From Calditrichota bacterium (GTDB lineage Bacteria > Calditrichota > Calditrichia > RBG-13-44-9 > J042): a stretch of 64,000 bases of DNA. The DNA lies in contig JAADJD010000005.1 of the NCBI GenBank assembly GCA_013150955.1, forward strand, positions 31,096 through 95,095, read 5' to 3'. Under the pieces are notes generated by a model, which saw nothing but the letters and a program-made list of their open reading frames with translations, did not search any database and was not told the origin of the DNA. Made by a program: the position numbers and the translations under genes. Every line of letters starts with the position of its first letter. Position 1 is the stretch's first letter. Positions 56,705-64,000 of this stretch are shown in pieces.

Positions 56705-57048
56705 ATTAACCCGGATTATGCCTTCGCCTACGAATGACACGGATGAACACCAATAGAAATAATAAACCCAAATAATGCATTAAACCGCGAATCACACGAA
56801 TGAAGCCAGAAAATTTTTGCAAAATCGCGAATAAACCCTGGAACACATTTTCATCCAGATATCATCCAGTGGATTTTATTGTCTATATTCGTTTTAATTC
56901 GTGTCATTCGTAGGCTATTACCTAAACCGGGATAAAATGCACTGGATTCCATCGGAATGAAAATGTTTTCCCGGAAATATTCGCTATTTTGTTGATTCTT
57001 TTCGAATGCATTCGCGTGATTCGTGGGTTAACGCTTTATTTGGGATTA
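56705..57048. repeat. Cluster of dispersed MITE-like elements
   Basis: TTAACCCGGATTATGCCTTCGCCTACGAATGACACG..., TGGATGAAAATGT box, TTCGCGTGATTCGTGGGTTAACGC. Confidence 0.7.
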
Positions 57049-57489
57049 AGAATTTCTCCAGAAGACAATGCTGCTGGTAAGTAGCGCCACTGCCAGACTG
57101 TAATCCAGTGCCGAGACGCCCATCAGGAAATGAAGATCGCCTTCTGCCATGCGGGAAAGCGAGACACCCAGGGTAATCATGGCCGCCAGTTCAAAATAGA
57201 AGCGAGTGCGGTATGCCTGCCAGAAGCGTGGCCGCGACAGTTGATCGATGCGGGCCAGATTTTTACGGCAAACCGGCATAAATAAAAAGCGCGATTTAAT
57301 CAGCCCGACCAGTATCCCAATTCCGATGGCAAGGGCCGGCACCTTCCAGTGGGGCTGGATGGCGTACGCCTGAAAAAGCAAATCGGTGGCCTTCAGAAGT
57401 AGCACAATGCCACCAATGTACCAGACCACCGCAGCCAGAATTTTTAATGTATTTTTAGAGACCATCATGACGTTCTTCCCATTTTTCAT
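57046..57489 (-). CDS. Hypothetical polytopic membrane protein
   Basis: ORF with 4 predicted TM segments; no recognised motif. Confidence 0.45.
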   Translation of the reverse strand: MKNGKNVMMVSKNTLKILAAVVWYIGGIVLLLKATDLLFQAYAIQPHWKVPALAIGIGILVGLIKSRFLFMPVCRKNLARIDQLSRPRFWQAYRTRFYFELAAMITLGVSLSRMAEGDLHFLMGVSALDYSLAVALLTSSIVFWRNS

Positions 57490-57661: not shown

Positions 57662-58861
57662 ATGGTCAAAGAGAGCGAAACCTATCGGCTGGGCACGGCA
57701 TTGTTCGGGTATTTTATTATTGTTACCCTGATTATGACGCTACTTCCGTTCCGATTTCACCTGCCCACCCGGATCGAAATTCTTTTCCACACCAATGTGC
57801 GGGATTTTCTGCTGAATGTGTTCCTGTTTGTGCCCCTTGGATTTTTGTATCAGTTGAGCCGCCCCAAAAACGCTCCCCTGCGAACGGGAGATGTGTTGCT
57901 GTTTGGTCTGGCACTCAGTGCCGCCATCGAGATGGCCCAGCTGTTTTTAGCCGGCCGGTACACCAGCGTGATTGATGTGGTTACCAACGGTGCTGGAGCC
58001 TGGCTGGGGGCATGGGTGTATCGATTTCTCCGGCAGCATCTTCGGCAGCAGGCAGTGGGATTGATGGCCCTGGAGTTGCCGCTGGTGAGCCTGGTCTATT
58101 TGCTTATCCCGCTGCAATGGTTAAGTGGCATGGCCACCGGCAGGGAATTGAATCGCCTGTGGTTGCTCCTGCTGAACGGTTTTATTGGTGCCAGAGTGTT
58201 CGTTGCCATTTATCAGAATCGCCTGAAAGACCTACCTTCCGTAACGCCGGTTGCCGTTACCCTGGCCGCGGTGGTCTGGTTCATTACCGCCAACCTGCCG
58301 GCCCTGCTGAACTTCCCTCTGCGAATCCTGATATTTGCAACGGCCATCGGGGTAATGGTCTACGGACAGGTGCGTCAACCGGTTCGCATCCATCCTGAGG
58401 ATCGCCGCTTCGAAATCCCGACCCTGCGGAAAATCATCCCTCTGTTTGCCCTGTACCTGGTGTTGCTGGTATACTGGCCACCGGTCATTCAAAAATTTCA
58501 ATGGGACTGGATGATACCTGCCGGCCTGTTCAGCGATGATCCACCCATGCCAGTGGTGCTGGGATTTATTGAGTATCTGGCCGCCTGCACATTGATGGGA
58601 TACATGGTAGCGGAATGGCGGGGGCGTTTACACCGGGGAACGGGATGGGCATTCATCCGCCAGTATGTGTTTATTGGACTGGTGGTACTGGCTCTGGAAA
58701 TCCTGCGCGGCCTGCATCCCCAGCATGCGGCCAGTGTGTTGCGCTTTTTCCTGGCTGCTGCGGCCGGAATCTACGGTTCCATTATCTACCGCCTGCAGGT
58801 AAATACCATTCGAAAAATCCTGTCCACGCGGTCTTTTTCTCCTTCCGCAAATTTGCATTAA
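57662..58861 (+). CDS. VanZ-like family membrane protein with extended C-terminal TM domain
   Basis: VanZ-like N-terminal region (LLNVFLFVPLGF...AIEMAQLFLAGRYTSVIDVVTNGAGAWLGAW). Confidence 0.6.
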   Translation: MVKESETYRLGTALFGYFIIVTLIMTLLPFRFHLPTRIEILFHTNVRDFLLNVFLFVPLGFLYQLSRPKNAPLRTGDVLLFGLALSAAIEMAQLFLAGRYTSVIDVVTNGAGAWLGAWVYRFLRQHLRQQAVGLMALELPLVSLVYLLIPLQWLSGMATGRELNRLWLLLLNGFIGARVFVAIYQNRLKDLPSVTPVAVTLAAVVWFITANLPALLNFPLRILIFATAIGVMVYGQVRQPVRIHPEDRRFEIPTLRKIIPLFALYLVLLVYWPPVIQKFQWDWMIPAGLFSDDPPMPVVLGFIEYLAACTLMGYMVAEWRGRLHRGTGWAFIRQYVFIGLVVLALEILRGLHPQHAASVLRFFLAAAAGIYGSIIYRLQVNTIRKILSTRSFSPSANLH

Positions 58862-59420
58862 ACCCGGATTATGCAGTAGCCTGCGAATGACACGAATTCG
58901 CGCGAACAAAAATAATTCACCCCAAATTATGCGATAGCCTACGAATTACACGAATTAACACCAAAAAAAATAATAAAATACACTTGATTCTATCTGGATG
59001 AAAATGTTCTCTTGGATATATTCGCTATTTTGTTGATTTTATTCGAATTCATTCGCATGATTCGTGGTTTAACGCTTTATTTGAGTTCAATTTTATCGGC
59101 ATGAAAATAGGTTCCGGAGTTTATCCCAGATTATGTATTAAACCACGAATTGCACGAATGAACACAAATAAAATTAATAAAATAAATTGGGTAGTATCTG
59201 GATGAAAAATGGTTTTCGTGATTTATTCGCTATTTTGTGGATGTGTTTTGGTTTCATTCGTGTGATTCGCGGTTAAATGCATTTTTGGGATTTATTGTTT
59301 TTGGTTCCATTCGCCTGATTCGCGGTTTAAAGCGTTATTTGGGATTATTCGCGATTGGGTTGATATTTTTGGGATGGATTCACGCGATTTGTGGTTTCGT
59401 GCGTAATTTGGGTTAAAGGT
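58860..59420. repeat. Array of at least 3 dispersed MITE-like elements
   Basis: Repeated AAACCCGGATTATGC / ACGAATTACACGAAT / TGGATGAAAATG / TTCGTGTGATTCGCGGTT blocks. Confidence 0.75.
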
Positions 59421-59488: not shown

Positions 59489-60358
59489 ATGAATTCCTAT
59501 AAATGGATCATGCGGATTTTGTACGGGGTGACCCTTTTATTGTACCTTTATTTTCTGGTGGATGGTTGGGCCTTTTACACAACCCCGTATGCGGAACGGC
59601 CATTTCACGAACAGTACCGCTATCTCAGGCCAGCGGGATTTCAGGGACATGGGTTTGGCATTGTTGGCAGCGCTATGATGATTTTTATGCTGTTGTATTC
59701 GGCACGGAAACGCTGGCGGTTTATGCGCCACTGGGGCCTGTTACGCCACTGGCTGGATGTGCACATTTATTTTGGTATCTTCGGGCCCCTGTTTGTCATT
59801 CTACACTCGGCATTTAAGGTGCAGGGATTGATCGCCGTAAGCTTCTGGTCGATGATTCTGGTGATGTGCAGCGGTATTCTGGGACGCTACCTGTATTTGA
59901 AAATTCCCAGAGACGTTACCGGGGAGGAACTCAGCCTGAGACAATTGCAGGAACAGGAAAAGGAACTGGTACAGGCACTGGCAGAACGCTACCGGCTGGA
60001 TACGTCCGTTCAGGAGCGGATTCAGGCACTGGCCGATATGCGCCGGCTGGAGAGTCTGCCACTGCTCATTTTGTTGTTTACCCTTTTCTTTCAGGATATC
60101 GTGCGTCCATTCCGCATGCGCCGGTTTCGCCAAATGCTGCGCCGACAATCGGGGTTGTCCGCAAAAGAGGCAAAGACCATGTCGCAATTAGTGCAACAAA
60201 AAATTACCCTGCATCAAAAGGTGGTATTGATCAATAAAATACATCGCCTGTTTCATTACTGGCATGTTTTTCATAAGCCCTTTGCGATTATCATGTATTT
60301 GATTATGTTCGTTCATGTGGGCATATCGGTCTGGCTGGGTTACACCTGGATTTTTTAA
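59489..60358 (+). CDS. Putative di-heme cytochrome b membrane protein (DUF4405-like)
   Basis: 5 predicted TM helices; paired His 14 residues apart within TM helices (HIYFGIFGPLFVILH and HKPFAIIMYLIMFVH) as in b-type heme ligation. Confidence 0.55.
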   Translation: MNSYKWIMRILYGVTLLLYLYFLVDGWAFYTTPYAERPFHEQYRYLRPAGFQGHGFGIVGSAMMIFMLLYSARKRWRFMRHWGLLRHWLDVHIYFGIFGPLFVILHSAFKVQGLIAVSFWSMILVMCSGILGRYLYLKIPRDVTGEELSLRQLQEQEKELVQALAERYRLDTSVQERIQALADMRRLESLPLLILLFTLFFQDIVRPFRMRRFRQMLRRQSGLSAKEAKTMSQLVQQKITLHQKVVLINKIHRLFHYWHVFHKPFAIIMYLIMFVHVGISVWLGYTWIF

Positions 60359-60368
60359 GGTCAGGGTC

Positions 60369-62090
60369 ATGATGAACTCCATTTGGTACTTCTGGATTGG
60401 CCTTGTGGGAATGTTGCTATACGGTAGTGTTCCCGCATGGGGACAGCTATCTCCAGGAAAACTCAGCCGGGTGCATCAGCAACTGGAAGGACTCAGGAAT
60501 TGTACCCGCTGCCACGAAGTTGGTAAAAAGCTCAGTCCCCAAAAATGCCTGGATTGCCATCGATTGCTCCGCCAGCGGATTGAAGCTGGAAAAGGCCTGC
60601 ACGCCCATCCCGAATATCGCTCGTGTGAACGATGCCACGTGGATCACCAGGGATTGGATTTTCCCCTGATTCACTGGAAGGACGGGATGGAACGATTGGA
60701 TCATACGTTAACGGGGTTTCCGCTGGAGGGCAAACATGCCCGCCTGAAATGTCGGGAATGCCACCAACCCAAATACATTCAGAATCCTGAAATATTTGAA
60801 CAGGCGGGGAAAGATTTACGCCGAACGTTTCTGGGACTGACAGCCGACTGTTCCCAATGTCACACCGATGTCCATCGGGGAGAGCTGGGGAACGATTGTT
60901 CCCGCTGCCACGATCCACGCGCCTGGTCGCCGGCACCGGGATTCGACCATCAGCAGACGCGCTTTCCACTAACGGGAAAGCATCAGCAGGTGGACTGTGC
61001 CCGCTGTCATCCCACAGAGGAAGCCGAGCCATCTTTGACATCCGGGAAATATCGGAAATTTGTGGGATTGGCATTTGCCAGTTGTGGCGATTGCCATCGG
61101 GATGTGCACCGGGGGAAGCTGGGCAGCCAGTGCGCATCCTGCCATTCCACCCGTGGGTGGAATCAGGTTGCCCTGGCCCGGTTTGATCACGACCAAACGG
61201 GATTTCCGTTAAAAGGCAAACACCGTGAGTTGTCCTGCCAGCAGTGCCATCCGCCGGGGAAATCGTTTGCGGGATTGCCCCATCAATTTTGCGCGGACTG
61301 TCATGACAATCCCCACCGCGGGGAGATGTCGCCAACCCGGTTGCGCTGGGACTGTTCCCGCTGCCATACGGAATCGTCCTTTCAAACCAGCCAGTTCAGC
61401 GTAGAGGATCATCAGGCTACCCGTTTCCCCCTGGAAGGGGCCCATCTGGCCGTTCCCTGCCGGGTCTGTCACTCGCTGGTGGAACGGGAGAATCGCCGGC
61501 AAACGGTGCAATTCCGGTTTGAACCGCTGGATTGCCAGGGCTGTCACTCCCATCCGCATGGACAAACCATTCCCGCCCGTTTCCAGGGGAAGGATTGTAA
61601 GGCCTGTCACGGTGTGGTGGACTGGCACGTGACGACATTTGACCATGCGAAAACCAATTTTCCACTGGAGGGACGGCATCAATCGGTTCCCTGTGGTGCC
61701 TGTCATCGGAGCCTCATGTCAGAAGATGGGCGCGGACACGTCCCGCTGGCGGGGATTTCGTCACGGTGCCAGGATTGCCATCCCGATGTGCATCAACGCC
61801 AGTTTGCCGAGCGCGCGATTAACGAGAAGGAAGGTGCCTTGCAGACCGATTGTCGTCGCTGCCACACACCGGAAGACTGGACGGCGCGCCTGTTCGATCA
61901 CAATCGGGATTCGCGATTTCCTCTGGAAGGTGCGCACCTGCGGGTGGCGTGTCAGGCCTGTCATCCTCAGGAGCGGGAAGGTAACGTGATTTTCACGCGC
62001 TATCGACCAATGGACGTGGCCTGCCGTGCCTGTCACGGATCATCACTAAACAAAGAAGCGCAGGAATCAACCGGGAAGGGAAGTTCATGA
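60369..62090 (+). CDS. Multiheme c-type cytochrome, 20 CxxCH motifs (doubled-CXXCH repeat architecture)
   Basis: Signal peptide MMNSIWYFWIGLVGMLLYGSVPAWG; 20 CxxCH; recurring FPL(E/T)G(K/A)H...C..CH modules. Confidence 0.85.
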   Translation: MMNSIWYFWIGLVGMLLYGSVPAWGQLSPGKLSRVHQQLEGLRNCTRCHEVGKKLSPQKCLDCHRLLRQRIEAGKGLHAHPEYRSCERCHVDHQGLDFPLIHWKDGMERLDHTLTGFPLEGKHARLKCRECHQPKYIQNPEIFEQAGKDLRRTFLGLTADCSQCHTDVHRGELGNDCSRCHDPRAWSPAPGFDHQQTRFPLTGKHQQVDCARCHPTEEAEPSLTSGKYRKFVGLAFASCGDCHRDVHRGKLGSQCASCHSTRGWNQVALARFDHDQTGFPLKGKHRELSCQQCHPPGKSFAGLPHQFCADCHDNPHRGEMSPTRLRWDCSRCHTESSFQTSQFSVEDHQATRFPLEGAHLAVPCRVCHSLVERENRRQTVQFRFEPLDCQGCHSHPHGQTIPARFQGKDCKACHGVVDWHVTTFDHAKTNFPLEGRHQSVPCGACHRSLMSEDGRGHVPLAGISSRCQDCHPDVHQRQFAERAINEKEGALQTDCRRCHTPEDWTARLFDHNRDSRFPLEGAHLRVACQACHPQEREGNVIFTRYRPMDVACRACHGSSLNKEAQESTGKGSS

Positions 62091-62148
62091 TCCAAAAACG
62101 AGGTTGCCCGGATTTTGTTTCCGTTGGTGACGAAAGCATCGATCATTT

Positions 62149-62325
62149 TAACCCAGATTATGCAATAGCCTACGAATTACACGAATTAAAACGAATAAAA
62201 ATAATAAAATCCATTTGATGATATCTGGATGAAAATGTGTTTTGTGTTTTATTCACGATTTTGCAGATATTTTTTGGTTTCATTCGTGTGATTCGCGGTT
62301 TAATGCATTATTTGGGTTTAAATAA
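62149..62325. repeat. Dispersed MITE-like palindromic element
   Basis: TTAACCCAGATTATGCAATAGCCTACGAATTACACGAATTAAAACGAATAAAAATAATAAAAT...TTCGTGTGATTCGCGGTTTAATGCA. Confidence 0.75.
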
Positions 62326-62480
62326 GATCTGAATTTTTTGAGGAAAATATGTGGGTGAGCAAAACTCCATGATAGCAAACAGGAAATTTTTCTGAAGGGA
62401 TTCTTATTGAGGAAAATTACCGGATTAAACCGTCGTTCAGTTAAACGGTTTCGGAGCGTATTCACAAAAAGGGACAGGAC

Positions 62481-63287
62481 ATGCAATATCGCATGGCGAA
62501 CGGGAAATGGATGGTGTTGCTGGGTATCCTTGTCGGATTCATAACCGGCCTGGCGCAGGATCATCCGCACCAGGTGTTGAAGCGCGACTGTGGTAGCTGC
62601 CATACGCCGCAAGGCTGGAAGACCATCGTGTTTGATCATCAGCAGACAGCCTTTCCGTTGAGCGGACGTCATACCCAGGTGGCCTGTGTGGATTGCCACC
62701 GGGTGACCAATTTCAGTCAGGTCAATCGCGAATGTTCTCGATGTCATCTGGATGTGCACCAGGGGGGATTGGGTCAGGATTGCGAGCGGTGCCATTCCGC
62801 TGTGGGCTGGCAGATTTTTGACGCCATGGAAGTGCACCAGAACACCAATTTCCCGCTGCTGGGAGCCCACGAAAAACTGGATTGCAAAAGCTGCCATCGT
62901 CGGGAGGTGCTGTCGGAGTATCGTCTGCTTTCTTCCGAATGTCAGGATTGCCATTTAACCGATTTCCGTCAGGCGGTCAATCCGGTACACACTGAGCTGG
63001 GGTTTGGTTTGAATTGCGAAAATTGCCACGTGTTATTCTCCTGGCGACCCGCTTCCTTTCGGGAACACGATGCGTATTTTCCCATATTTTCCGGTTCCCA
63101 CGCGGGGGAATGGAGCCAGTGTGCCACCTGCCACATTCAGGAAGGGGATTACAAAGTCTTCAGTTGCCTGACCTGTCACGAGCATTCTCAGAGCCGCACC
63201 GATAGCGAACACGATGAGGTCAGCGGGTATGTGTACGACAGTCAGGCCTGCTATGCGTGTCATCCCACAGGGGAAGGGGAGGATTGA
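62481..63287 (+). CDS. Decaheme c-type cytochrome (10 CxxCH), same doubled-CXXCH family
   Basis: Signal/TM anchor MVLLGILVGFITGLA; 10 CxxCH motifs. Confidence 0.8.
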   Translation: MQYRMANGKWMVLLGILVGFITGLAQDHPHQVLKRDCGSCHTPQGWKTIVFDHQQTAFPLSGRHTQVACVDCHRVTNFSQVNRECSRCHLDVHQGGLGQDCERCHSAVGWQIFDAMEVHQNTNFPLLGAHEKLDCKSCHRREVLSEYRLLSSECQDCHLTDFRQAVNPVHTELGFGLNCENCHVLFSWRPASFREHDAYFPIFSGSHAGEWSQCATCHIQEGDYKVFSCLTCHEHSQSRTDSEHDEVSGYVYDSQACYACHPTGEGED

Positions 63288-64000
63288 TGATGAAGGGGAT
63301 TTTGTATGGATGGATGATCCTGTTTTTGTGGGTGACCCTACATGCCCGGTCTGCGGATACGATGCGAGTGCAGTACCAGACGCCGAATCTGGTGTATGTC
63401 AATCAGGGACGGGCACAGGGGTTGGCCTTGGGCGATACCTTACGGGTGATCCGAAATGGCCAGACCATTGCTCGCCTGGTGGTTCAGTATGTGTCATCCC
63501 GTTCGGCGGCCTGTCGGGTTGTGCAGGCGGATGCAGCGATTCGGGTGGGAGATCAAGTGGAACGGGTGGAGCCCGCCACGGCGATTGCGGAGTCCCCCAC
63601 GGAGGAATCGCCCCGGATGACGGATACGTCATTCGTCCGCCCGACGCCTCCAGAGCGCGTTCATCCCGAATCCGCCGTCCGTGAACAGAAAGCCGCCATC
63701 CGCGGTCATCTGGCCATTCAATTTTTTGGGGTGGACGATTTTTCCAGCAACAATCGCGATTATGGAGTACCCAACCTCTCTCTTCGGCTGCGGGCACAAA
63801 ATCTCTGGCGACGGGGAATGCACATCCACATTCGATTACGATCCCGCTATTACCAGCGGAATCAGCTGATACCGGGTGTGGTTCCACAGCAGGAATGGCG
63901 CAATCGTTTGTATGAAATGGCATTCATCTATGAACCATCCGGTGCTCGCCTGCATTATCGATTTGGCCGCTTGCTTACGGAGGTAATAAACGGAGTGGGG
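63288..64000 (+). CDS. Partial (3'-truncated by window) secreted protein, possible outer-membrane partner of the cytochromes
   Basis: ATG immediately after cytochrome stop; signal peptide MMKGILYGWMILFLWVTLHA; alternating hydrophobic pattern near window end; open to end of window. Confidence 0.45.

What the first reader, a model, noticed from the sequence alone, without database searches (positions are those of the whole stretch)
59489..64000. Candidate transmembrane/extracellular electron-transfer module: di-heme cytochrome b, 20-heme and 10-heme c-type cytochromes, secreted partner
Four co-oriented, tightly spaced genes make up the module. The first is a 5-TM protein with two His pairs spaced 14 residues apart within helices, the pattern of bis-His heme-b ligation. 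The second and third are secreted 20-heme and 10-heme cytochromes. The fourth is an immediately adjacent signal-peptide protein whose visible part has beta-strand-like alternating hydrophobicity. This resembles porin-cytochrome or Cbc-type quinol-to-periplasm or extracellular electron conduits. Because the organism also makes menaquinone and oxidises sulfur via sHdr, the module could deliver electrons to an extracellular or periplasmic acceptor, or take up electrons. The last gene is truncated by the window.
Basis: partly seen in the sequence, partly recalled or inferred. Interest (0 to 1): 0.7.

Follow-up and report, generated by a model that had tools for sequence, protein, structure and literature searches.

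The report
Two-membrane electron conduit gene cluster
The window ends inside a gene cluster, conserved across several poorly studied bacterial phyla, that looks built to carry electrons from the cell interior through both membranes to the outside, and its inner-membrane entry point appears to differ from the quinol-fed ones known so far.

Summary
On the + strand lie a 289-aa membrane protein with four invariant, helix-embedded histidines (H92/H106, H262/H276), a 20-heme cytochrome, a 10-heme cytochrome and the first 237 aa of a secreted protein. The only correction is a 390-nt gap between the two cytochrome genes.

Relatives complete the picture. The truncated gene encodes a ~540-aa outer-membrane protein. 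It has a small N-terminal beta domain and a linker, then a confidently modelled 22-strand barrel ending in ...GYRF.

The same gene order recurs in Calditrichota, Zixibacteria, Ignavibacteria, KSB1 and Thermoanaerobaculia, including cultured Caldithrix abyssi. That gene should lie just beyond the window end.

My best reading is a porin-cytochrome-type conduit across the cell envelope. Its inner-membrane entry would resemble NADPH oxidase (NOX): NAD(P)H, flavin, Fe-S, heme b pair. That differs from a Cbc/CymA/ImcH-type quinol oxidase.

None of the proteins reaches the threshold of any named family (MtrB, MtrA/DmsE, CbcL, ImcH, DUF4405). All function is inferred from sequence and gene order. I rate it a new variant of a known kind, with moderately high interest.

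The parts
58887..58984 (+). Promoter-like sites in the 627-nt gap upstream of g1. This is a possible operon start and is weak evidence.
   Evidence: The consensus scan found three sigma-70-like sites here. They are consensus matches only, and 10 sites were found against 5.5 expected in the scanned region.
59489..60358 (+). g1: inner-membrane protein of 289 aa and a candidate di-heme b cytochrome. It has 5 predicted TM helices plus a ~120-aa basic cytosolic helical insert (residues 138-255). The candidate heme ligands are H92/H106 on TM3 and H262/H276 on TM5.
   Evidence: ORF. His positions and hydropathy. Invariant H92, H106, H256, H259, H262 and H276 in 28 homologues. AF2 model with pLDDT 78.7. 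Sub-threshold Pfam hits in family members: DUF4405 in 26/28, Ferric_reduct in 19/28, Ni_hydr_CYTB in 7/28. No Pfam or NCBIfam hit at threshold.
60315..62090 (+). g2: secreted 20-heme c-type cytochrome. The likely true start is the MM at 60369, with signal cleavage before QLSPGKL. It is the proposed partner of g1 and a periplasm-spanning heme wire.
   Evidence: 20 CxxCH, 40 Cys all in motifs, 46 His. Pfam Cytochrome_C7, c3_2 and CIII. A multiheme cytochrome gene follows g1 in 73/75 loci, and it carries exactly 20 hemes in 62/69 complete orthologues.
62091..62480 (.). A 390-nt AT-rich intergenic gap. Relatives carry 0-2 extra giant multiheme cytochrome genes at this position.
   Evidence: No ORF or heme motif in any + frame. 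Relatives.
62481..63287 (+). g3: secreted decaheme c-type cytochrome of 268 aa, the proposed insert of the outer-membrane barrel.
   Evidence: 10 CxxCH, 20 Cys all in motifs, 22 His. Pfam. A g3-like module lies directly upstream of g4 in related loci, either as its own gene or as the C-terminal part of a giant cytochrome. It is 51% identical to the C. abyssi gene next to the barrel gene.
63287..64000 (+). g4, truncated with 237 aa visible. The visible part holds the signal peptide, a small periplasmic beta domain, a Pro/Glu-rich linker and about the first five strands of an outer-membrane barrel that has 22 strands in the modelled homologue.

Best explanation
The window holds the first four genes of a conserved five-component module that spans the whole cell envelope and moves electrons.

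Proposed path, from inside to outside:
1. g5 is a membrane-anchored protein with a ferredoxin-like 2x[Fe-S] domain fused to a thioredoxin-reductase-type FAD/NAD(P)H domain. It is seen in relatives and predicted just past the window end. It oxidises NAD(P)H in the cytoplasm.
2. g5 passes electrons to the inner heme of g1. g1 would bind two b hemes between TM3 and TM5 (H92 with H262 on the cytoplasmic side, H106 with H276 on the periplasmic side) and carry electrons across the inner membrane, as NOX/ferric-reductase-type proteins do.
3. The 20-heme g2, always encoded next to g1, takes the electrons across the periplasm.
4. The decaheme g3, always encoded next to g4, sits in the 22-strand outer-membrane barrel and delivers electrons to the cell surface. 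The acceptor there would be insoluble or too large to enter the cell (metal oxides, humics, a partner cell).

Shown here: the gene content, heme-motif counts, conserved His, barrel fold of the g4 family, domain content of g5, and strict conservation of gene order.

Inferred: heme b binding by g1, the contacts g5-g1, g1-g2 and g3-g4, the direction of flow, and the acceptor.
For: - Heme counts, with every Cys in a CxxCH motif and enough extra His for bis-His ligation.
- Four invariant His with 14-residue spacing on two helices. The basic loops at 72-88 and 138-255 place them at matching membrane depths.
- Sub-threshold but consistent Pfam hits of family members to DUF4405, Ferric_reduct and Ni_hydr_CYTB. 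A DUF4405 protein has been shown to bind heme b (PMC11334425).
- Gene order: a multiheme cytochrome follows g1 in 73/75 loci, and g5 is present in 51/52 loci that have g4. The one exception is a contig end.
- When g5 lies upstream instead, it abuts or overlaps g1 by 4 nt.
- Independent gene calls in Caldithrix abyssi show g1, a 20-heme gene, a 22-heme gene, a g3-like gene (9 CxxCH, 20 Cys), the barrel gene and the Fer4+Pyr_redox gene as one co-oriented block, followed by genes on the opposite strand.
- g5 domains: Fer4 dicluster plus Pyr_redox_3/2. The closest solved structures are YpdA/Bdr, thioredoxin reductases and TrxR-type ferredoxin-NADP reductases.
- g5 has no conserved Cys outside the Fe-S motifs, and its FAD (GxGPAG) and NAD(P)H (GGGDSA) motifs are conserved.
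- Direction (inference from bioenergetics): electrons leaving the cytoplasm move with the membrane potential and downhill from NAD(P)H. The reverse would be uphill on both counts.
Against: - g5 is not visible in the window, there is no g5 homologue elsewhere in the window, and the contig could not be extended.
- The g1 model is only moderate (pTM 0.63) and I could not inspect its coordinates, so the His-His geometry is unverified.
- Neither cytochrome in the window has a lipoprotein signal, so no surface-anchored lipoprotein cytochrome is evident.
- The organism has menaquinone genes, so a quinol route is possible.
- C. abyssi is not known to reduce Fe(III); this has not been tested (PMC6137239).
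- An NAD(P)H-fed outward path would conserve no energy by itself.
Confidence: 0.5

Rival explanations
1. Quinol-fed conduit. g1 is a menaquinol dehydrogenase of the di-heme b type, analogous to the b domain of CbcL. It feeds the 20-heme cytochrome, and the rest works as a porin-cytochrome conduit. g5 is then an accessory, a regulatory redox link, or an alternative input.
For: Menaquinone biosynthesis genes lie just upstream. All characterised Gram-negative conduits start from quinol oxidases (PMC6295460; general knowledge). 7 of 28 g1 family members give weak Ni_hydr_CYTB hits. The H262-x13-H276 helix aligns, not significantly, with an H-x13-H helix of E. coli cytochrome b561 YodB.
Against: This reading does not explain the near-obligate presence of g5 or its translational coupling to g1. 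No quinol-site motif or family membership could be shown. The large conserved basic cytosolic insert in g1 suggests a cytoplasmic protein partner.
Confidence: 0.25
2. Inward electron uptake. The same hardware runs in reverse, taking electrons from Fe(II), a reduced mineral, a cathode or a partner cell, and delivering them through g1 to the Fe-S flavoprotein to reduce NAD(P)+ or another cytoplasmic acceptor.
For: Mtr-type conduits are reversible, and MtoAB/PioAB homologues work in oxidation (PMC3903129; general knowledge). Hmc/Tmc complexes of sulfate reducers do carry electrons from periplasmic multiheme cytochromes through a b-type subunit to a cytoplasmic Fe-S protein (general knowledge).
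Against: Reducing NAD(P)+ (about -320 mV) from typical extracellular donors is uphill. Moving electrons inward also works against the membrane potential. No energy-coupling subunit is present in the cluster. This is inference only.
Confidence: 0.1
3. Not a conduit across the outer membrane. The cytochromes form a periplasmic electron store or a reductase for a soluble substrate, and g4 is a substrate or uptake channel, or an export/anchor protein for the large cytochromes.
Against: A decaheme module lies directly upstream of the barrel gene in relatives, often overlapping it, either free-standing or as the C-terminus of a giant cytochrome. That pattern matches the MtrA/MtrB logic. A 22-strand barrel with no encoded plug domain has room for an insert (inference).
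Confidence: 0.12

Closest known systems
MtrCAB / MtoAB / PioAB porin-cytochrome complexes (Shewanella, Sideroxydans, Rhodopseudomonas)
   Same: A decaheme cytochrome gene lies directly next to a large outer-membrane barrel gene, and both products are secreted. The logic of a heme wire threaded through a barrel fits.
Geobacter Pcc (OmaB/OmbB/OmcB) and Ext clusters; 'pcc-like' clusters reported in Ignavibacteria and Caldithrix
   Same: The cluster combines a porin-like protein with multiheme cytochromes. Fortney et al. 2018 already flagged a pcc-like system and a porin homologue in a Caldithrix MAG and in C. abyssi LF13 (PMC6137239). Shi et al. 2014 listed a Pcc cluster in Ignavibacterium album (PMC4245776).
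   Different: Heme numbers differ: 20 + 10 here, against 8 + 12 in Geobacter and 14 in IALB_1838. Those reports do not describe the linked His-rich membrane protein or the Fe-S flavoprotein. I could not test whether g4 is homologous to OmbB, or whether it is the gene those papers meant.
Inner-membrane quinol oxidases of extracellular electron transfer: CymA, ImcH, CbcL, CbcBA
   Same: They hold the same position in the pathway, as the inner-membrane entry that feeds periplasmic multiheme cytochromes. CbcL also uses a di-heme b domain.
   Different: g1 has no c-type heme motif and does not reach the threshold of Ni_hydr_CYTB or NapC/NirT models. It is paired with a cytoplasmic NAD(P)H-type flavoprotein, which none of these has.
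Ferric-reductase-domain superfamily (NOX, FRE, STEAP, MsrQ) and DUF4405 cytochromes
   Same: There are two pairs of His, spaced 13-14 residues apart, on the third and fifth TM helices. The TM2-3 and TM4-5 loops are cytosolic. A flavin/NAD(P)H module sits on the cytoplasmic side and electrons are delivered to the outer face. Family members give weak hits to DUF4405 and Ferric_reduct, and the top Foldseek hit, though not significant, is STEAP1.
   Different: g1 has 5 rather than 6 predicted TM helices, and a ~120-aa helical insert in the TM4-5 loop. The dehydrogenase is a separate membrane-anchored protein of the thioredoxin-reductase fold with two Fe-S clusters, not the ferredoxin-reductase-type FAD/NADPH domain fused in NOX. 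The acceptor is a multiheme cytochrome rather than O2, Fe3+ or MsrP. No significant sequence or fold match was obtained.
Hmc / Tmc / Qmo transmembrane redox complexes of sulfate reducers
   Same: They share the architecture: a periplasmic multiheme cytochrome c, an integral b-type cytochrome and a cytoplasmic Fe-S (flavo)protein, all encoded together.
   Different: There is no NrfD/NrfC-type or CCG-domain subunit. HmcA model scores are far below cutoff (23.9 and 17.8 bits against 400). An outer-membrane barrel is part of this cluster. The flavoprotein here is TrxR/FNR-like, not HdrA-like.
Flavin-based extracellular electron transfer of Listeria and other Gram-positives (Ndh2, EetA/EetB, PplA)
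   Same: A dedicated NAD(P)H-oxidising entry enzyme is encoded with the export path, and the likely role is as a sink for excess reducing power.
   Different: That system uses a dedicated quinone (DMK) and flavinylated proteins, with no hemes and no outer membrane. Here no ApbE or FMN-binding genes are seen in the cluster.

Membership tests
Outer-membrane beta-barrel protein (general class) | N-terminal signal peptide, an even number of antiparallel strands closing a barrel, and a C-terminal aromatic beta-signal | tested here: met
MtrB/PioB family porins | Match to the MtrB_PioB profile; 26-strand barrel | tested here: not met
MtrA/DmsE decaheme cytochromes (TIGR03508) | Score above the curated cutoff of 192 bits | tested here: not met
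   g3 gives no hit. g2 scores 47.4 bits over its residues 415-575 only.
Geobacter Pcc porin (OmbB/OmbC) family | Sequence homology to OmbB | not testable with these tools
PMC6137239 reports a Pcc-porin homologue in C. abyssi but gives only an IMG gene id.
DUF4405 (PF14358) heme-b proteins | Pfam gathering score of 26.7 bits; four central His in a six-TM bundle | tested here: inconclusive
   The window g1 scores 10.9 bits, E = 0.68. 26 of 28 family members give sub-threshold hits, the best at E = 6.9e-7. Four invariant His are present, but only 5 TM helices are predicted.
Ferric reductase domain (PF01794) / NOX-MsrQ-STEAP | Profile match; His pairs on TM3 and TM5 of a six-TM core | tested here: inconclusive
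CbcL-type (HydC/FdnI-like b domain fused to a multiheme c domain) | A Ni_hydr_CYTB-type b domain plus c-type heme motifs in one protein | tested here: not met
   g1 has no CxxCH. Ni_hydr_CYTB appears only sub-threshold, in 7 of 28 members.
NapC/NirT/NrfH family quinol dehydrogenases (CymA, ImcH-like) | A membrane-anchored tetra- or multi-heme c protein matching NapC/NrfH profiles | tested here: not met
   g1 has no c-heme motif. g2 and g3 hit NrfH only at E = 0.022 and 0.015, far below the 134-bit cutoff.
Multiheme cytochromes c of the c3/c7 type | Repeated CxxCH with bis-His ligation; Pfam Cytochrome_C7, c3_2 or CIII above threshold | tested here: met
   g2: Cytochrome_C7 at 83.9 bits (cutoff 24.8). 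g3: 47.7 bits. There are 20 and 10 CxxCH motifs, with 26 and 12 additional His.
TrxR-type ferredoxin-NAD(P)+ reductase / YpdA-like flavoproteins (g5, seen in relatives only) | A two-dinucleotide-fold FAD/NAD(P)H enzyme; TrxR proper also needs a CxxC, and YpdA equivalogs score at least 340 bits | tested here: inconclusive
   Pyr_redox_3 scores 179 bits, above threshold. YpdA scores 186 bits, below its cutoff. There is no conserved Cys outside the Fe-S motifs, so it is not a disulfide reductase. The gene is not inside the window.

The most novel reading that the evidence does not exclude
This module is the first example in double-membraned bacteria of an extracellular electron-transfer route that bypasses the quinone pool. 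It would be a split, NOX-like NAD(P)H dehydrogenase: a membrane-anchored Fe-S flavoprotein plus a new family of di-heme b proteins, wired directly to a periplasm-spanning 20-heme cytochrome and a new porin-cytochrome pair. It is widespread in Calditrichota, Zixibacteria, Ignavibacteria, KSB1 and some Acidobacteriota. It would serve as a non-energy-conserving electron sink for fermentative or organotrophic growth on minerals, humics or partner cells.
Probability: 0.35. Interest if true: 0.85.

Novelty: new variant of a known kind. Interest (0 to 1): 0.66.

Why it matters
Every characterised conduit in Gram-negative bacteria starts at a quinol oxidase. An entry fed by NAD(P)H would change how electron budgets and energy yields are modelled for mineral-respiring and fermenting sediment bacteria.

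It would also give a function to three protein families that currently carry no annotation:
- The g1 family has about 3,900 cluster representatives at 50% identity.
- The g4 barrel family has at least 146 clusters at 90% identity, in a search that scored only the top 8,000 candidates.
- The third is the anchored Fe-S flavoprotein, g5.

These families occur in phyla that are abundant in sediments, aquifers and hydrothermal systems but have few cultured members.

The complete module is present in the cultured strain Caldithrix abyssi DSM 13497, whose barrel gene is Calab_3331. The hypothesis is therefore directly testable. Even if the input turns out to be quinol, the cluster is a compact minimal version (30 hemes) of a conduit whose relatives carry up to about 90 hemes.

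Tried and rejected
1. Extending the contig. Exact-protein look-ups for g1, g3 and P0001 found nothing on record. The metagenome scan with g3 found only relatives at 49% identity or less. The genome scan returned relatives at 55% or less, not the source MAG.
2. Searching the large protein database with the 237-aa window fragment of g4 gave no hits, although homologues exist. A profile built from relatives' genes worked.
4. A sequence profile of g1 against the PDB gave only spurious interferon-gamma matches to the loop.
5. hhalign of the g1 family against E. coli MsrQ and YodB was not significant.
6. Looking for g1-g5 gene fusions. The 809-aa ORF in L065 is an over-extended ORF in a high-GC genome. 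P0363 and P0373 look like frameshifted or chimeric predictions, not true fusions.
7. I considered and rejected g5 as a thiol reductase supporting cytochrome maturation. It has no conserved Cys outside its Fe-S motifs, and g1 has no conserved Cys.
8. Recent horizontal acquisition is not indicated. GC is 0.48-0.55 here, within the window's range of 0.45-0.58.
9. Literature searches found no description of this five-gene module. They found only general 'pcc-like' mentions for Caldithrix and Ignavibacteria.

Full report
**What is in the window**

Four ORFs lie on the + strand between 59489 and the window end.
- g1 (59489-60358, 289 aa) has no heme c motif.
- g2 (60315-62090, 591 aa) has exactly 20 CxxCH motifs. 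All 40 of its cysteines are in those motifs, and it has 46 histidines.
- g3 (62481-63287, 268 aa) has exactly 10 CxxCH motifs, 20 cysteines and 22 histidines.
- g4 begins at 63287 with a signal-like segment and runs off the window after 237 residues.

g2 probably starts at the Met-Met at 60369, just before its hydrophobic signal segment and the conserved mature start QLSPG. The g3 stop and the g4 start overlap by one base.

Base composition is unremarkable for the window.

**The membrane protein g1**

g1 has no hit in Pfam or NCBIfam. Even so, it belongs to a large family:
- more than 1,200 clusters at 90% identity;
- about 3,900 cluster representatives at 50% identity with E <= 0.001;
- 351 hits among the genomes that represent one species each.

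An identical protein is annotated only as hypothetical, in a Calditrichaeota MAG (GXO78_01710, NOX36229.1).

In an alignment of 28 members at 47-55% identity, H92, H106, H256, H259, H262 and H276 are invariant. H92/H106 lie in the third hydrophobic segment and H262/H276 in the last, each pair 14 residues apart. The loops at 72-88 and 138-255 are strongly basic (6 and 22 Lys+Arg). By the positive-inside rule this puts H92 and H262 near the cytoplasmic face and H106 and H276 near the periplasmic face. That arrangement would hold two stacked b hemes across the membrane. The pairing is my inference, because I could not read the model's coordinates.

The AlphaFold model is moderate (pLDDT 78.7, pTM 0.63). 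It shows five long membrane helices plus a helical insert of about 120 residues.

No significant relative was found by any route:
- a PDB sequence profile gave nothing real;
- Foldseek's best hit was STEAP1 at E = 0.98;
- hhalign to E. coli MsrQ and YodB was not significant.

What does exist is a consistent set of sub-threshold Pfam hits when each family member is scanned alone: DUF4405 in 26 of 28 (best E = 6.9e-7), Ferric_reduct in 19 of 28 and Ni_hydr_CYTB in 7 of 28. To my knowledge all three are two-heme membrane cytochrome families. A DUF4405 protein has been purified and shown to bind heme b (PMC11334425).

I conclude that g1 is very probably a di-heme b protein of a family of its own, distantly related to the ferric-reductase/DUF4405 group.

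**The truncated gene g4**

Searching with the window fragment alone found nothing, so I took full-length genes from related loci and searched with their profile. The family members are about 530-560 aa long, carry no Pfam domain, and are annotated as hypothetical.

An AlphaFold model of the closest full-length homologue (P0135) is confident, at pLDDT 88.5. In order it shows:
- a signal helix;
- a small beta domain (residues 25-93);
- a disordered linker (97-126);
- 22 beta strands from residue 133 to the C-terminus.

The window fragment aligns to the N-terminal domain, the linker and about the first five strands. Membership of the MtrB/PioB family is not supported.

**Gene neighbourhood**

In 80 related loci from Calditrichota, Zixibacteria, Ignavibacteria, KSB1 and Thermoanaerobaculia, the gene order is strikingly constant.
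- A multiheme cytochrome gene follows g1 in 73 of 75 loci with room for it. It has exactly 20 heme motifs in 62 of 69 complete cases.
- Next come zero to two further cytochrome genes, with up to 73 heme motifs in one ORF.
- A g3-like ten-heme module lies directly before g4, either as a separate gene, as in the window, or as the C-terminal end of a giant cytochrome.
- Total hemes between g1 and g4 range from 23 to 90. The window's 30 is near the minimum.
- The 390-nt gap in the window sits exactly where relatives carry their extra cytochrome genes.

In 51 of 52 loci that contain g4, a gene of about 435-450 aa is present. In 50 of them it follows g4; in one (L071) it lies immediately upstream of g1. 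The single exception is a contig that ends 2 nt after g4.

Three further loci whose contigs stop before g4 also carry it immediately upstream of g1. In these four loci it abuts g1 or overlaps its start (by 4 nt in L073 and L074).

Its product has several recognisable parts.
- It has a conserved N-terminal membrane helix followed by a basic stretch.
- It has a two-cluster ferredoxin domain and an FAD/NAD(P)H domain of the thioredoxin-reductase fold.
- The closest solved structures are YpdA/Bdr, thioredoxin reductases and TrxR-type ferredoxin-NADP reductases.
- It has no conserved cysteine outside the Fe-S motifs, so it is not a disulfide reductase.
- The second cluster motif reads CxxHxxCxxxCP, with the His conserved in at least 90% of 48 sequences.

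No homologue lies inside the window. By synteny it should begin roughly 1 kb past the window end. I could not confirm this because the contig could not be extended.

Independent gene calls in a Caldithrix abyssi assembly show the whole block with gaps of at most 16 nt. The order is g1 (294 aa), a 20-heme gene, a 22-heme gene, the g3-like gene (9 CxxCH, 20 Cys), the barrel gene and the Fer4/Pyr_redox gene. Genes on the opposite strand follow the block. The barrel protein is Calab_3331 in the type strain DSM 13497.

**How it most likely works**

The anatomy suggests two sub-complexes. The inner-membrane one is g5, g1 and g2. The outer-membrane one is g3 and g4.

I propose that NAD(P)H is oxidised by the flavoprotein. 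Electrons then pass through its two Fe-S clusters to the b hemes of g1 and across the inner membrane, along the 20-heme chain through the periplasm, and through the decaheme held in the 22-strand barrel to the cell surface.

This resembles NADPH oxidase and ferric reductases at the inner membrane, and MtrAB at the outer membrane.

The outward direction is favoured on energetic grounds. Electrons leaving the cytoplasm move with the membrane potential and downhill from NAD(P)H. Uptake would have to climb both. This is inference.

It remains possible because the organism makes menaquinone. It leaves the near-obligate flavoprotein partner unexplained.

Two further rivals are listed with their tests: an uptake function, and a purely periplasmic function with g4 as an ordinary channel.

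**Comparison with what is known**

The module works like a porin-cytochrome conduit but is not a member of the named families.
- Scans listed no MtrB/PioB-type family for g4.
- The DmsE/MtrA model scores 47 bits against a cutoff of 192, for g2 only.
- HmcA and NrfH scores are negligible.
- g1 lacks the c-heme domain that defines CbcL, ImcH or CymA.

Earlier genome surveys noted 'pcc-like' systems in Ignavibacteria and in a Caldithrix MAG, and a Pcc-porin homologue in C. abyssi (PMC4245776; PMC7399161; PMC6137239). The idea that these phyla carry porin-cytochrome genes is therefore not new. I could not check whether those reports refer to this barrel.

In the papers I could search, I found no description of the conserved link to the His-rich membrane protein and the anchored Fe-S flavoprotein. 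The C. abyssi genome paper does not discuss the cluster.

**Verdict**

The thing is a new variant of a known kind: a widespread, unannotated conduit module across the cell envelope, with a probably novel inner-membrane entry.

All functional statements rest on sequence, predicted structure and gene order. Nothing here shows heme b binding, protein contacts, direction of flow or the acceptor. A cultured carrier exists, so the key experiments are feasible.

Noticed in passing
L044:16667-17968 (g5 homologue) and 47 other related loci; not in the window: The second Fe-S motif of the flavoprotein reads C-x-G-H-G-x-C-x3-C-P, with the His conserved in at least 90% of 48 sequences in place of the usual second Cys. 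This suggests a Cys3His-ligated or 3Fe cluster. Such clusters often sit at electron exit points, for example the distal cluster of [NiFe] hydrogenases (my knowledge). The C. abyssi protein has exactly 7 Cys in total.
   Followed up: partly
window 62091-62480: The 390-nt AT-rich gap between the two cytochrome genes lies exactly where relatives carry one or two extra cytochrome genes. The window's 30-heme version may be a reduced form, or the gap may hold an internal promoter. One weak promoter-like site lies at 62176-62205.
   Followed up: partly
L076:11551-17034, L064:12474-17651, L033:12565-16845 and others: Relatives encode single ORFs with 58, 70 and 73 CxxCH motifs (1,426-1,827 aa) between the 20-heme gene and the barrel gene. 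Their C-terminal ~250 aa match g3. The ORF boundaries come from my simple ORF caller and were not curated.
   Followed up: partly
window 63287-63600 (g4 N-terminal domain): The small beta domain ahead of the barrel gives a sub-threshold match to FlgT_C (E = 1.8e-4, 22.4 bits against a cutoff of 27). It carries a conserved S-A-S/A-C motif (SAAC in the window). The Cys is not universal: the C. abyssi protein has no Cys at all. Its role is unknown; it could be a plug, a dock for a cytochrome, or a cell-wall contact.
   Followed up: no
window 60047-60112 (g1 residues 187-208): A hydrophobic segment with an invariant Asp (D203) lies inside the otherwise basic cytosolic insert. It scores as a possible sixth membrane helix by hydropathy, but the positive-inside rule argues against that. 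It may be an interfacial or re-entrant helix.
   Followed up: partly
window 57662-58861 (+) and 57046-57489 (-): A 399-aa multi-pass membrane protein with an N-terminal VanZ-like domain (59.5 bits) lies just upstream of the module, and a 147-aa membrane protein with no family match lies on the other strand. Neither is conserved next to g1 in the 80 related loci: tblastn with the VanZ-like protein found nothing.
   Followed up: partly
P0363 and P0373 (database proteins found with the g1 profile): Two predicted proteins join a g1 N-terminal half to cytochrome-like or Pyr_redox-like sequence through apparently out-of-frame or deleted stretches. They look like frameshifted or chimeric metagenome predictions, not natural fusions.
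   Followed up: partly
window 63287-63997 used as a database query: The word-indexed protein search returned no hit for the 237-aa g4 fragment, although tblastn against related loci gave E values down to 1e-42. The source MAG's own g4 was also not among the 120 listed hits of the later profile search (best identity to the window fragment about 37%). An empty result from that tool should not be read as absence of homologues.
   Followed up: yes
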